From positions 1 to 36,565 of the forward strand of contig JBEIFE010000001.1 in NCBI GenBank assembly GCA_040382575.1: 36,565 bases of DNA, given 5' to 3'. This document shows, one piece after another, positions 28,014 to 29,513 of the stretch; position 1 is the first letter of the stretch, and each line of letters opens with the position of its first letter. The position numbers were made by a program, and so were the translations under genes. Below the pieces are notes generated by a model that did not search any database, had not been told where the DNA came from, and saw nothing but the letters and a program-made list of their open reading frames with translations. This DNA comes from Candidatus Sericytochromatia bacterium (lineage in GTDB: Bacteria; Cyanobacteriota; Sericytochromatia; S15B-MN24; UBA4093).

Positions 28014-29513
28014 TCAGGCCAGGGTGCGTCGCGCTCCGGAGCGAGTGAGGCCACCTTCGCCGTCCATGGCTTCACCGTCGAAATTCCCGAGCGAACTCCC
28101 GAACCACTTGGCCGGTACGGTGGCGCGGACGAAGTTCGTGGCGAACGCGATCGGGTTCATCGTGGTCAATTTGCTCTCCACGGGATCCCAGAGCCCGATA
28201 CCATCCTGACCGAATCCGGTAGCCTCATAGAGCAACATGGCATGCAGCGATCCGTCGGGCATGCGCATCGTGACCTTCGGAATACCATCGATATCTTTCC
28301 CCATGGACTTCAAGATGGCGTCGGCCTCCGGGTTGACGGCCAGGCTCAGCAGGAACGAGATGACCTGGGGGGGCGTGATGGTCGACCAGTCGCCTCCCAG
28401 GACCTTCTCGTGGAGCAGTTCGCTGGTCTTCGGGCCGATGGTCGTCTGACCGTCCCAGTGGGTCGTTCCGGCTGCCAGGGCCCCCATGCTGCTCTGAACC
28501 GCCATGTCAATCAGAGAGCGCCCCCCTGCCGTGGCGGGGTCGAAGGTGGCCAGAGGCATCGAGGTTCCATCGGCGAGGGTCGCTTCACCCCGCGTGATCA
28601 GGCCAACCGCGATCCGGGCGAAGTCGGCAGGCCGTGTGAAGGCCAGTTCGCTCTCGAGCGTGGCCAGCGTGCAGTCCAGGGTTTCTTGCCCCTGGTGCGT
28701 TTTCTCGGGAGACGTGATGCGTTCCAGCAACTGGCGGGCAAGTTCGGGTTTGCCCGTTTTCTCGAAGGCAGCGTTCAGGGGACTGCGGATGAAACTGGCC
28801 AAGTGGTCGAAGACCATGGCTCCATCTGCATCCGGACGGTAGGCATTGCCAGTCACCTCCAACCCCATCAGGCTCTTTCGGTTACGGACGAGGATGGCAA
28901 GCTGGTCTGCGATCGCATCGGCACCGGCATCCGAAAGCCCCTCGGAAGCCAGTCCGTAATAGTCATAGATGGCCTTCTTGTGAGCCGCACTCAGCGGTGA
29001 ACCGTCCGGGTACCGCGCGGCGTTGACGGCGTCTTGCAAACGGTCGAAACCGGAGTAAGGCAGACCATGATCATGGATGGCAGAGGCATCCGGGGGCTGG
29101 CTCACGCTGTTCCGTTCGGGGGCGCCGCCGCCAATCACCGGGACTCGATCCTCCCCGGTGCTGATCGCTGGTGCGGCGGGCAGGGCCTGCGGGCCACTGA
29201 GCGTGACCTCGGAGGTGGGTGCTCCGATGAGGCGGAACTCGGAGCGCGGTGGTTCGCTGAGACGGACTTCGGAGGCGGGAGCTTCGATGAGTCGGTACTC
29301 GGAGCGGGGCGGTTCGCTCAGGCGAGCGCCTGTACTCGGTGGCTCGAGTAGCCGGAACTCGGATCGGGGCGCTTCACTGATCAGGACATCTGAGCTGGGC
29401 GGACCGATGAGACGGACTTCGGTGCTCGGTGCCGGAACCGACTTCGGACTCGCGACGGCAGGAACAGCGCCCAGGAGACGCGGTACACCACCGGATTCTG
29501 AAATCCCGCTCAC
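28014..29513 (-). CDS. hypothetical protein: N-terminal decapeptide repeat array plus C-terminal domain with Cys...His...Asp arrangement
   Basis: The track ORF starts at TTG 29531, but GTG 29513 has GAGGAGG 5 nt upstream. It carries seven RL(I/S)E(A/P)PxSE(F/V/Y) units. The C-terminal part carries QGQETLDCTLA ... SLHAMLLYE ... GLWDP. No signal peptide is evident. Confidence 0.7.
   Translation of the reverse strand: MSGISESGGVPRLLGAVPAVASPKSVPAPSTEVRLIGPPSSDVLISEAPRSEFRLLEPPSTGARLSEPPRSEYRLIEAPASEVRLSEPPRSEFRLIGAPTSEVTLSGPQALPAAPAISTGEDRVPVIGGGAPERNSVSQPPDASAIHDHGLPYSGFDRLQDAVNAARYPDGSPLSAAHKKAIYDYYGLASEGLSDAGADAIADQLAILVRNRKSLMGLEVTGNAYRPDADGAMVFDHLASFIRSPLNAAFEKTGKPELARQLLERITSPEKTHQGQETLDCTLATLESELAFTRPADFARIAVGLITRGEATLADGTSMPLATFDPATAGGRSLIDMAVQSSMGALAAGTTHWDGQTTIGPKTSELLHEKVLGGDWSTITPPQVISFLLSLAVNPEADAILKSMGKDIDGIPKVTMRMPDGSLHAMLLYEATGFGQDGIGLWDPVESKLTTMNPIAFATNFVRATVPAKWFGSSLGNFDGEAMDGEGGLTRSGARRTLA
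29205..29414 (-). repeat. seven in-frame 30-bp tandem repeats (decapeptide units)
   Basis: Peptide units are RLIGPPSSDV, LISEAPRSEF, RLLEPPSTGA, RLSEPPRSEY, RLIEAPASEV, RLSEPPRSEF and RLIGAPTSEV. The plus strand shows period-30 units such as ggaactcggagcgcggtggttcgctgagac. Confidence 0.85.

What the first reader, a model, noticed from the sequence alone, without database searches (positions are those of the whole stretch)
28014..29513. Convergent neighbour: repeat-bearing protein with a possible papain-fold (Cys-His-Asp) domain and no signal peptide
The gene ends 7 nt from the TPR gene stop, on the opposite strand. Behind a 7-unit decapeptide array, the C-terminal ~380 aa carry three elements in the order typical of clan CA cysteine peptidases and C39/YopT-like effectors:
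- Gln about 5-7 residues before a Cys (QGQETLDCTLATL)
- a late His followed by hydrophobics (SLHAMLLYE)
- a DP motif 19 residues later (GLWDP)

I do not recognise a named family, so the catalytic assignment is a hypothesis. Every repeat contains a Ser in a fixed context (P-R/A/T-S-E), often preceded by Arg. This raises the speculative possibility that the array is a multi-site substrate of the neighbouring kinase.
Basis: inference. Interest (0 to 1): 0.65.

Follow-up and report, generated by a model that had tools for sequence, protein, structure and literature searches.

The report
Unannotated papain-like cysteine protease family
The gene encodes a protein with a floppy repeat-bearing head and a well-supported papain-type cysteine protease body. 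It belongs to a large family that no database has named, but nothing ties it functionally to the kinase operon next door.

Summary
The gene is a real 499-aa CDS on the minus strand (28014-29513, GTG start behind a GAGGAGG ribosome-binding site). Its stop lies 7 nt from the TPR gene's stop.

The papain-fold hypothesis is supported:
- No Pfam or NCBIfam model matches, but a profile search found 530 representative relatives.
- In 150 diverse relatives, Gln and Cys are invariant. His is present in 134 and Asp/Asn in 131.
- A profile of the family matches the C39 double-glycine protease LahT (6mpz, E=3.9e-4), with all four residues aligned.
- A confident AlphaFold model (pLDDT 88.7) most resembles papain-like toxins, calpain and AvrRpt2.

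The family lacks Sec signal peptides, has disordered N-termini, and has at least 6 paralogues in one Sericytochromatia genome.

The kinase-substrate idea is not supported. The repeats are not conserved in orthologues that keep the operon. Paralogues and outgroup homologues have no such operon nearby.

One unexplained family feature is Gly-Gly-Arg motifs concentrated in a loop and in the C-terminal tail. These may be self-cleavage or pseudo-substrate sites.

Verdict: a new, uncharacterised family within a known enzyme clan, of moderate interest.

The parts
28014..29513 (-). CDS of the 499-aa protein, including the stop codon at 28014-28016
   Evidence: ORF. The start was chosen from the RBS and from homologue N-termini. 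Homologues have E values down to 1e-221.
29519..29525 (-). Ribosome-binding site GAGGAGG, 5 nt upstream of the GTG start
   Evidence: Read directly from the sequence. Aligned with the orthologous loci.
29064..29513 (-). N-terminal region, residues 1-150: low-complexity, probably disordered, no signal peptide
   Evidence: Composition and hydropathy. The region is not alignable beyond close orthologues. Across the family, 149 of 150 members have comparable polar N-termini with no hydrophobic signal-like segment.
29205..29414 (-). Seven imperfect decapeptide repeats, residues 34-103 (consensus RLxEPPRSEF)
   Evidence: Tandem Repeats Finder periods 30 and 60. Unit list. Conserved only in P0001 and P0002; replaced by other repeats in P0003, P0005 and P0006.
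29124..29132 (-). Gly128-Gly130 run (VIGGGAPE) in the linker about 20 residues before the folded domain
   Evidence: The orthologue clade has GGGG or GGSG at the same place. More distant relatives do not. Its significance is unknown.
28104..29060 (-). Folded domain, residues 152-470: a helical N-terminal extension plus a papain-like (clan CA) catalytic core
   Evidence: AlphaFold2 model with pLDDT 88.7 and pTM 0.90. Profile hits to C39, C70, BtrH and papain-like toxins. Foldseek hits to papain-like proteases. 530 relatives in the representative library.
28692..28694 (-). Codon of Gln274, the predicted oxyanion-hole residue
   Evidence: Present in 150 of 150 relatives. Aligned to the Gln of the C39 domain in 6mpz.
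28671..28673 (-). Codon of Cys281, the predicted nucleophile
   Evidence: Present in 150 of 150 relatives. Sits at the N-terminus of helix 130-142 of the model. Aligned to the Cys of 6mpz.
28242..28244 (-). Codon of His424, the predicted general base
   Evidence: Present in 134 of 150 relatives, with 12 gaps. Lies in beta-strand 272-278 of the model. Aligned to the His of 6mpz.
28185..28187 (-). Codon of Asp443, the third triad residue, followed by Pro444
   Evidence: Asp in 84 and Asn in 47 of 150 relatives, with 17 gaps. Lies at the end of strand 287-292 of the model. Aligned to the D-P of 6mpz.
28017..28103 (-). Disordered C-terminal tail, residues 471-499. It ends in the conserved 15-mer GEGGLTRSGARRTLA (28017-28061).
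Evidence: The tail is conserved in all five full-length orthologues. Related clades end in EGGGRxG plus a fixed 8 residues.

Best explanation
The gene encodes a stand-alone cysteine peptidase of the papain-like clan (CA). It belongs to a large family that has no Pfam or NCBIfam model.

The protein has three parts:
1. About 150 N-terminal residues that are disordered and fast-evolving. In this lineage they carry seven decapeptide repeats.
2. A folded domain of about 320 residues. A helical extension leads into a papain core. In that core Cys281 sits at the start of a helix, Gln274 would form the oxyanion hole, and His424 and Asp443 lie on two adjacent beta-strands.
3. A 29-residue basic, glycine-containing tail.

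Shown here: the fold class, the conservation of the four catalytic residues, the family's size, the lack of Sec signals, and the paralogue expansion.

Inferred:
- It hydrolyses peptide bonds through a thiol-imidazole mechanism.
- Its specificity resembles that of its nearest characterised relatives, the C39 double-glycine peptidases LahT and ComA and the Cpe1-type toxins. These cleave at Gly-Gly.
- The Gly-Gly-(Arg) motifs encoded in the family's own tail or loop are self-cleavage or pseudo-substrate (autoinhibitory) sites.

The disordered head is most likely a tether or a targeting/interaction region. It is probably not a specific kinase substrate. The cellular compartment and the physiological substrate are unknown.
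For: Gene reality and homologues.

Catalytic residue conservation:
- Invariant in close homologues.
- Gln and Cys in 150/150, His in 134/150, Asp/Asn in 131/150 of diverse relatives. Median spacing is 158 residues from Cys to His and 16 from His to Asp.

Clan membership by sequence:
- The profile search against PDB returned mostly clan-CA proteins: LahT C39 (6mpz, E=3.9e-4, with Q, C, H and D-P aligned), the 9l5u toxin, PfhB2, CdiA-CT, AvrRpt2, BtrH_N, ComA and a 'C39-like peptidase'.
- The only protease-related marginal Pfam hits among 82 members are C39_2, C70, C58 and BtrH_N.

Clan membership by structure:
- The model has pLDDT 88.7 and pTM 0.90. Cys is at a helix N-terminus and His and Asp are on consecutive strands.
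- Foldseek's top hits are CdiA-CT 8ssm and 9l5u (probability 1.00, target-normalised TM 0.67). Calpain, AvrRpt2, LapG, SpeB, GtgE, PCAT1 and USPs follow.

Double-glycine inference:
- ComA, LahT and Cpe1 all cut at GG motifs; Cpe1 cuts at LHAGG|KF (PMC12136450).
- In the family, Arg follows Gly runs 2.6 times more often than expected.
- GG[RK] density is 12.2 per 1000 aa in one loop and 5.6 per 1000 aa in the tail, against 0.8-1.0 per 1000 aa elsewhere.
- The closest clades end in EGGGR plus a fixed 8 residues.
Against: - No curated model matches the protein.
- No Foldseek hit reaches E<=1e-3, and only about 140-200 of the 328 modelled residues align.
- Model coordinates could not be inspected, so the triad geometry is unverified.
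- The model rests on a 25-sequence alignment.
- Papain-fold enzymes are not all proteases. BtrH-type acyltransferases, deamidases and transglutaminases share the fold.
- In this particular protein the tail reads GG-L-T-R rather than GGGR, and the loop carries no GG-R motif. The self-substrate idea therefore rests mostly on relatives.
- The enrichment statistics use related, non-independent sequences.
- There are no expression or biochemical data.
Confidence: 0.72

Rival explanations
1. It is an exported effector or toxin protease that acts on other cells. It would be one member of a paralogous arsenal. Delivery would use a non-Sec route, with the disordered N-terminus or the basic C-terminal tail serving as the export signal.
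For: - The nearest structural neighbours are interbacterial toxins (CdiA-CT 8ssm and the 9l5u toxin/immunity pair) and type III effectors (AvrRpt2, GtgE).
- 149 of 150 family members lack a Sec signal yet have long polar, disordered N-termini.
- One MAG carries at least 6 paralogues. Three of them lie within 7 kb among toxin-antitoxin modules.
- C-terminal 20-mers are net positive: +0.79 against -0.27 for internal segments.
Against: - There is no PAAR, Rhs, VgrG or CdiA carrier domain and no adjacent immunity-like gene. The downstream gene is a convergent TPR gene.
- The window is a core chromosomal region (gltX, trehalose-6-P synthase, MoxR/DUF58, ABC-F) with no secretion-system genes.
- The orthologue sits in conserved synteny across MAGs, as a housekeeping-type gene would.
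- The domain is about 320 aa with a conserved helical extension, not the roughly 140-aa toxin module.
Confidence: 0.25
2. It is a functional partner of the convergent operon (EDR1-like, kinase-like and TPR genes). In this reading the repeat array is phosphorylated at its Ser residues by the kinase-like protein, or its tail is bound by the TPR protein.
For: - The stop codons are 7 nt apart, and the arrangement is kept in every orthologous locus recovered (window, L001, L002, L007, L008).
- The repeats carry Ser or Thr next to acidic residues.
- TPR domains commonly bind C-terminal peptides (general knowledge), and the tail is conserved.
Against: - All those loci share synteny over the whole region, so adjacency is not independent evidence.
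- The decapeptide array and its P-x-S-E context are absent from orthologues P0003, P0005 and P0004, which keep the operon.
- Outgroup homologues and paralogues lack the operon.
- The genes are convergent, not co-transcribed.
- The kinase-like protein has no Pfam hit and only E of about 0.01 to kinases. The catalytic-loop Asn is replaced by His.
- A metagenome scan for more operon copies returned only two short contigs.
Confidence: 0.08
3. It is a papain-fold enzyme that is not a protease. Candidates are an acyl- or aminoacyl-transferase (BtrH-like), a deamidase, a transglutaminase or an isopeptidase (deubiquitinase-like).
For: - BtrH N-terminal domain structures appear among the profile hits (E of about 0.1).
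- USPs and a chlamydial deubiquitinase appear among the weak fold hits.
- One paralogue lies next to a gene encoding a near-eukaryotic ubiquitin domain.
Against: - The best sequence and structure matches are true peptidases: LahT, ComA/PCAT1, the papain-like protease toxin 9l5u, calpain, AvrRpt2 and SpeB.
- The invariant Gln upstream of the Cys is the classic peptidase oxyanion-hole feature.
- The ubiquitin-domain neighbour lacks a terminal Gly-Gly, is predicted to be secreted, and accompanies only one paralogue.
Confidence: 0.12

Closest known systems
Peptidase family C39: double-glycine leader peptidase domains of PCAT/AMS ABC transporters (LahT150 6mpz, ComA, PCAT1)
   Same: - Best sequence-profile match (6mpz, E=3.9e-4), with Gln, Cys, His and Asp-Pro aligned in two blocks. 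ComA is also hit.
- PCAT1 appears among the fold hits.
- The order and spacing type match: Gln-x5/6-Cys ... His-x(~16)-Asp/Asn.
   Different: - No Pfam C39 match.
- Not fused to an ABC transporter and no transmembrane segments.
- The domain is more than twice as large, with a conserved ~120-residue helical extension before the Cys helix and a long insertion between the lobes.
- No bacteriocin-type substrate gene lies nearby.
Papain-like interbacterial toxins: the Cpe1 type (T6SS/CDI; PMC12136450), PDB 9l5u, and CdiA-CT of Citrobacter rodentium (8ssm)
   Same: - Top Foldseek matches (probability 1.00, target-normalised TM 0.67) and also hit by the sequence profile (E=0.01-0.02).
- The published Cpe1 work places these toxins with LahT and ComA and shows cleavage at a Gly-Gly motif followed by Lys.
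- That motif is reminiscent of the family's own GG-Arg motifs.
   Different: - Those toxins are ~140-aa C-terminal modules on PAAR, Rhs or CdiA carriers, each with an adjacent immunity gene.
- This protein has a disordered N-terminus instead of a carrier, no immunity gene, and a core-chromosome context.
- I did not verify that 9l5u is the Cpe1-Cpi1 entry itself.
Type III effector cysteine proteases AvrRpt2 (C70) and YopT/AvrPphB (C58)
   Same: - No signal peptide, a disordered N-terminus and a Cys-His-Asp triad.
- AvrRpt2 is hit by both the profile (E=0.028) and the fold search (probability 1.00 over 64 columns).
- One family member each gives a marginal Pfam hit to C70 and to C58.
   Different: - The matches are short and weak.
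- No type III secretion context was seen.
- The host lineage (Sericytochromatia MAGs) has no known type III effectors.
Calpain protease core (C2)
   Same: A recurrent fold hit in both models. Calpain has the Gln-x5-Cys oxyanion/nucleophile arrangement (general knowledge of calpain).
   Different: Only about 105-135 columns align, with TM below 0.25 on the query. There are no calcium-binding or other calpain domains.

Membership tests
Clan CA (papain-like) cysteine peptidases | Nucleophilic Cys at the N-terminus of an alpha-helix | tested here: met
   Cys281 (model residue 130) starts helix 130-142 in the pLDDT 88.7 model. It is conserved in 150 of 150 relatives.
Clan CA (papain-like) cysteine peptidases | His on a beta-strand C-terminal to the Cys, followed by Asp or Asn on the next strand | tested here: met
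   His424 lies in strand 272-278 and Asp443 at the end of strand 287-292. His is present in 134/150 and Asp/Asn in 131/150, and most of the rest are gaps.
Clan CA (papain-like) cysteine peptidases | Gln a few residues before the Cys (oxyanion hole) | tested here: met
   Gln274 is present in 150/150. It aligns to the Gln of the 6mpz C39 domain.
Clan CA (papain-like) cysteine peptidases | Overall fold similarity to solved papain-like structures | tested here: met
   Most of the best-scoring hits are papain-like. 8ssm and 9l5u have probability 1.00 and TM 0.67 on the target. Calpain, AvrRpt2, LapG, SpeB, GtgE and PCAT1 are also hit. Caveat: no E value reaches 1e-3, and the alignments cover only the core.
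Clan CA (papain-like) cysteine peptidases | Thiol-dependent peptide-bond hydrolysis | not testable with these tools
   This needs enzyme assays with wild type and a C281A mutant.
Peptidase C39 / C39-like (PF03412, PF13529) | Match to the family model above its threshold | tested here: not met
   The protein has no Pfam hit. Only 2 of 82 relatives give a marginal C39_2 hit, with best E=4.3e-4.
Peptidase C39 / C39-like (PF03412, PF13529) | N-terminal domain of an ABC exporter, or a gene next to a double-glycine leader-peptide substrate | tested here: not met
   The protein is stand-alone and soluble, with no transmembrane segment. The neighbours are an M14 peptidase, a 42-aa ORF and the TPR/kinase-like/EDR1-like operon.
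Peptidase C39 / C39-like (PF03412, PF13529) | Cleavage after a Gly-Gly motif | not testable with these tools
   This is only suggested. The basis is the GG-Arg motifs enriched in the family's loop and tail and the specificity of the relatives.
Polymorphic papain-like toxins (Cpe1 / CdiA-CT type) | Toxin module at the C-terminus of a delivery scaffold (PAAR, Rhs, VgrG or CdiA) | tested here: not met
   The N-terminal 150 residues are low-complexity with no domain hit. The same holds across the family.
Polymorphic papain-like toxins (Cpe1 / CdiA-CT type) | Cognate immunity gene immediately downstream | tested here: not met
   The downstream gene is the convergent TPR gene. The outgroup and paralogue loci examined share no common downstream gene.
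   The operon is adjacent only in orthologous, fully syntenic loci. It is absent next to P0006, P0007, P0154, P0087, P0163 and P0055.
   The decapeptide array is present in P0001 and P0002 only. P0003 and P0005 have unrelated repeats and P0004 has none.

The most novel reading that the evidence does not exclude
The gene belongs to a previously unrecognised family of self-regulated, double-glycine-specific cysteine proteases. This family would form a paralogous effector arsenal in little-known bacteria (Sericytochromatia, Eremiobacterota, Myxococcaceae, and a Rhizobiaceae megaplasmid). The proteins would be exported without Sec signals, with the disordered N-terminus or the basic C-terminal tail as the export signal. 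The enzyme would be held inactive or matured by its own Gly-Gly-Arg loop or tail motifs until delivery.
Probability: 0.12. Interest if true: 0.7.

Novelty: new variant of a known kind. Interest (0 to 1): 0.42.

Why it matters
- **A new family to define.** The result turns a 'hypothetical protein' into the founding example of a sizeable peptidase family: at least 530 clusters at 50% identity, none with a Pfam or NCBIfam model and none named among the 30 clusters checked. The catalytic residues are clear enough to define a new Pfam/MEROPS family within clan CA.
- **An unusual architecture.** No signal peptide, a hypervariable disordered head, a conserved helical extension, and Gly-Gly-Arg motifs in a loop or tail. 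This gives a concrete, testable hypothesis of autoprocessing or autoinhibition by a double-glycine protease.
- **A possible lineage trait.** The multi-copy expansion in non-photosynthetic relatives of cyanobacteria hints at lineage-specific biology, either effectors or regulated proteolysis.
- **A caution about adjacency.** The tight convergent position next to a kinase-like operon is explained here by regional synteny, not by a demonstrated functional link.

Tried and rejected
- **Pfam and NCBIfam on the protein:** no hit.
- **phmmer of the single sequence against PDB:** noise only.
- **First AlphaFold model, from 6 sequences:** too poor around the active site (pLDDT 66). Its fold search gave only hints, so it was replaced by a 25-sequence model.
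- **The search for homologous proteins with the wide alignment:** returned only the close set, because of the word-index limit.
- **The search for related loci with the wide alignment:** failed because no stretch was conserved enough. With the close alignment it found only two MAG loci.
- **BFVD viral fold search:** nothing significant.
- **Profile comparison with the neighbouring EDR1-like protein:** no relationship, probability 0.4%. The two genes are not duplicates.
- **Metagenome scan for more copies of the kinase-like gene:** two short contigs, so no independent co-occurrence test was possible.
- **Rfam on 27.5-30.2 kb:** nothing.
- **Promoter/terminator scan of the region:** no more than chance.
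- **The LLGAVPAVA segment as a signal peptide:** considered and rejected, because orthologues do not conserve it.
- **The upstream 42-aa ORF as an immunity or inhibitor protein common to the family:** considered and rejected. It accompanies only the orthologues, not the paralogues.
- **The N-flank Gly run as a general feature:** it occurs only in the orthologue clade.
- **Other copies in the window:** a search with the family profile found only this gene.
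Full report
**1. What is there**

The minus-strand ORF 28014..29531 can encode 505 aa from a TTG. The real start is almost certainly the GTG at 29513.
- It lies 5 nt after GAGGAGG at 29525-29519.
- The close homologues begin MSGIS/MSTIS at that position.

Its stop codon (28014-28016) is 7 nt from the stop of the plus-strand TPR gene at 28004-28006.

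Residues 34-103 form seven imperfect decapeptide units with degenerate units on both sides. The array is visible at DNA level as periods of 30 and 60 nt, with TRF scores of 109 and 172.

**2. Is it a papain-fold enzyme?**

Pfam and NCBIfam give nothing for this protein. A single-sequence PDB search gives noise. Only six close homologues exist in the 5.8-billion-protein index, all from metagenomes or MAGs. Two genome hits identify the lineage as Candidatus Sericytochromatia.

A profile of the C-terminal ~355 residues was run exhaustively against 1.84 billion representative proteins. It found 530 relatives at E<=1e-3 and 72 at E<=1e-10.

In a MAFFT L-INS-i alignment of 150 of these relatives:
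- Gln is present in 150 and Cys in 150.
- His is present in 134, with 12 gaps.
- The third residue is Asp in 84 and Asn in 47, with 17 gaps. This Asp/Asn alternation is typical of papain-like enzymes.
- Median spacing is 158 residues from Cys to His and 16 from His to Asp.

Eighty-two members scanned against Pfam have no family. The only protease-related marginal hits are Peptidase_C39_2 (2 members), C70, C58 and BtrH_N (1 each), all papain-clan models.

A 25-sequence family profile was searched against all PDB sequences.
- The best hit is the C39 double-glycine protease domain LahT150 (6mpz, E=3.9e-4). Two blocks align: Gln/Cys, and His...Asp-Pro.
- Below it the list is mostly other papain-clan proteins: the 9l5u 'papain-like cysteine protease toxin', PfhB2, CdiA-CT, AvrRpt2, BtrH N-domains, ComA and a 'putative C39-like peptidase'.

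**3. Structure**

A first AlphaFold2 model built from six sequences was mediocre (pLDDT 66).

With the 25-sequence alignment the model reached pLDDT 88.7 and pTM 0.90.
- Cys281 is the first residue of a helix.
- His424 lies in a beta-strand.
- Asp443 lies at the end of the next strand.
- Gln274 sits in the loop before the Cys helix. This is the canonical papain arrangement.

The Foldseek search against PDB returned no hit at E<=1e-3, but most of the best-scoring hits are papain-like:
- CdiA-CT of Citrobacter rodentium (8ssm) and 9l5u, both with probability 1.00 and target-normalised TM 0.67.
- Calpain, AvrRpt2, LapG, SpeB zymogen, GtgE, PCAT1 and several USPs.

The viral structure library added nothing. 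I could not inspect coordinates, so the triad geometry itself is unverified.

About 120 residues of helices precede the Cys helix. They carry a conserved D..G.TLLD.L motif and have no detectable relative. In some family members this helical half is repeated two to four times without the Gln/Cys motif.

**4. The family**

149 of the 150 relatives have no N-terminal hydrophobic, signal-like segment. Almost all begin with long polar Pro/Ala/Ser/Thr-rich or repeat-bearing segments. The decapeptide array is therefore this lineage's version of a general 'disordered head'.

Of the 30 clusters looked up, every one that carries a name is a 'hypothetical protein'. The organisms named are several Sericytochromatia MAGs, Candidatus Eremiobacteraeota and Myxococcaceae. 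A cultured Pararhizobium megaplasmid also carries a member (hhalign probability 98.7%).

The Sericytochromatia MAG GCA_035285805.1 encodes the orthologue plus at least five paralogues. Three of these lie within 7 kb among toxin-antitoxin modules. The window itself holds only one copy.

**5. Neighbourhood and the kinase idea**

The convergent genes form a translationally coupled trio, with ATGA overlaps inferred from the orthologues' gene lengths.
- An EDR1/CTR1/ARMC3 peptidase-like protein (PF14381, E=2e-15).
- A kinase-like protein.
- A TPR protein.

The kinase-like protein has no Pfam hit. It reaches only E of about 0.01 against eukaryotic-type Ser/Thr kinases, through HGDLKPDH...IDPA.

Every orthologous locus keeps the same arrangement. 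However, all of them share synteny over the whole region from gltX to MoxR/DUF58, so adjacency carries no independent weight.

The three nearest outgroup homologues and four paralogues in the MAG, at three further loci, have unrelated neighbours.

The repeat array is kept only in P0001 and P0002. P0003 and P0005 have different repeats and P0004 has none, yet P0003 and P0005 retain the operon; no context was retrieved for P0004. A metagenome scan for further operon copies was unproductive.

The multi-site kinase-substrate speculation is therefore unsupported, though it is not formally excluded.

The rest of the window is ordinary chromosome, with no secretion-system genes: ABC-F, Fe-ADH, enoyl reductase, radical-SAM DUF512, trehalose-6-phosphate synthase, gltX, an M14 carboxypeptidase and MoxR/DUF58.

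**6. How it most likely works**

Shown: a papain-clan fold with a complete, family-wide conserved Gln/Cys/His/Asp(Asn) set.

Inferred: thiol-dependent peptide-bond hydrolysis.

The closest characterised relatives are LahT, ComA and the Cpe1-type toxins. The published Cpe1 study groups them together and shows that all cut at double-glycine motifs; Cpe1 cuts at LHAGG|KF (PMC12136450).

The family carries its own Gly-Gly-Arg motifs:
- After a Gly run, the next residue is Arg 2.6 times more often than expected (131 of 758). These sequences are not independent.
- GG[RK] is concentrated in one inter-lobe loop (12.2 per 1000 aa) and in the C-terminal tail (5.6 per 1000 aa). Elsewhere, including the disordered head, the density is 0.8-1.0 per 1000 aa.
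- The clades nearest to this protein end in EGGGR followed by a fixed eight residues.
- The orthologue clade ends in the conserved GEGGLTRSGARRTLA.

My best mechanistic guess is a double-glycine-type protease whose own loop or tail serves as an autoprocessing site or an autoinhibitory pseudo-substrate. This part is inference, at roughly one chance in three. In this particular protein the motif is degenerate (GG-L-T-R).

Whether the enzyme works in the cytoplasm or is exported by a non-Sec route is open. The toxin-like structural neighbours, the paralogue expansion and the positively charged C-termini keep an effector role alive. The absence of a carrier domain, an immunity gene or a secretion context argues against it.

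**7. Comparison and novelty**

It works like a C39-type papain-like peptidase, but it is not a member of C39, C58, C70 or the Cpe1/CdiA toxin families.
- It fails their models.
- It lacks their defining contexts: fusion to an ABC transporter, or a carrier plus an immunity gene.
- It has a domain twice as large, with a conserved helical extension.

It is best described as a new, unannotated family within clan CA, that is, a new variant of a known kind. Interest is moderate. The fold assignment is not surprising. The family's size, its architecture and its self-encoded Gly-Gly-Arg motifs do give a clear experimental programme.

Noticed in passing
window 29660-29788 (-): A 42-aa ORF (MLETSVRIRMEDAHQDGDSLVAIARAYLEYAARLQREQASVV) with its own GGGGAGGGG ribosome-binding site. 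It lies about 145 nt upstream of the protease gene on the same strand. It is 81-100% identical in all orthologous loci, with synonymous third-position changes. That makes it more conserved than the protease itself (52-66%). It has no Pfam hit, is found only in this lineage, and does not accompany the paralogues.
   Followed up: partly
window 29531-29659 (-): Conserved non-coding blocks between the 42-aa ORF and the protease start: TTTCACGG..TCTTGCACGAG and AGGAATAAAGATCTCG. They are shared across loci whose flanks have diverged. They may be a promoter or operator. There is no sigma-70 consensus match and no Rfam hit.
   Followed up: partly
window ~24598-28006 (+): Three translationally coupled genes. 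The first is an EDR1/CTR1/ARMC3 peptidase-like protein (PF14381, E=2e-15) with about four N-terminal ~60-aa repeats (V.I.RS.GE.E.GW.L). The second is a divergent kinase-like protein (HGDLKPDH...IDPA; best PDB E about 0.01). The third is a TPR protein. In plants the EDR1 domain is fused to Raf-like kinases (general knowledge), so this looks like an operon version of that domain pairing.
   Followed up: partly
L017 7525-8682 (-), Sericytochromatia MAG GCA_035285805.1: A protein with a signal peptide followed by a near-eukaryotic ubiquitin domain: [72 protein letters not shown] (Pfam ubiquitin E=3.6e-29). It has no terminal Gly-Gly and carries a C-terminal hydrophobic region. The gene is convergent with a paralogue of the protease. 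It is either a horizontally acquired ubiquitin or contamination of the bin.
   Followed up: partly
L017 117-7302, same MAG: Three paralogues of the protease family lie within 7 kb. They are interleaved with PhdYeFM/PIN and HigB/HTH toxin-antitoxin modules, which suggests a variable island.
   Followed up: partly
Family members P0033, P0022, P0081, P0019, P0077 and others (not in the window): The helical N-terminal half of the domain (profile positions ~3-187) is repeated two to four times upstream of the single complete catalytic domain. The extra copies lack the Gln...Cys motif. One 5879-aa protein (P0040) carries three partial copies, each with a Gln...Cys motif.
   Followed up: partly
L008 3611-4045 (locus of P0001, 97% identical to the window protein): The near-identical homologue is split by a frameshift after residue ~361. 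The C-terminal part, containing His and Asp, is encoded in another frame. This is either an assembly error or a pseudogene in that metagenome.
   Followed up: no
L018 517-10663, Pararhizobium qamdonense plasmid NZ_CP119567: The family member WP_276121416 sits inside a run of five or six large co-directional genes. All are annotated as hypothetical and none has a Pfam hit.
   Followed up: no
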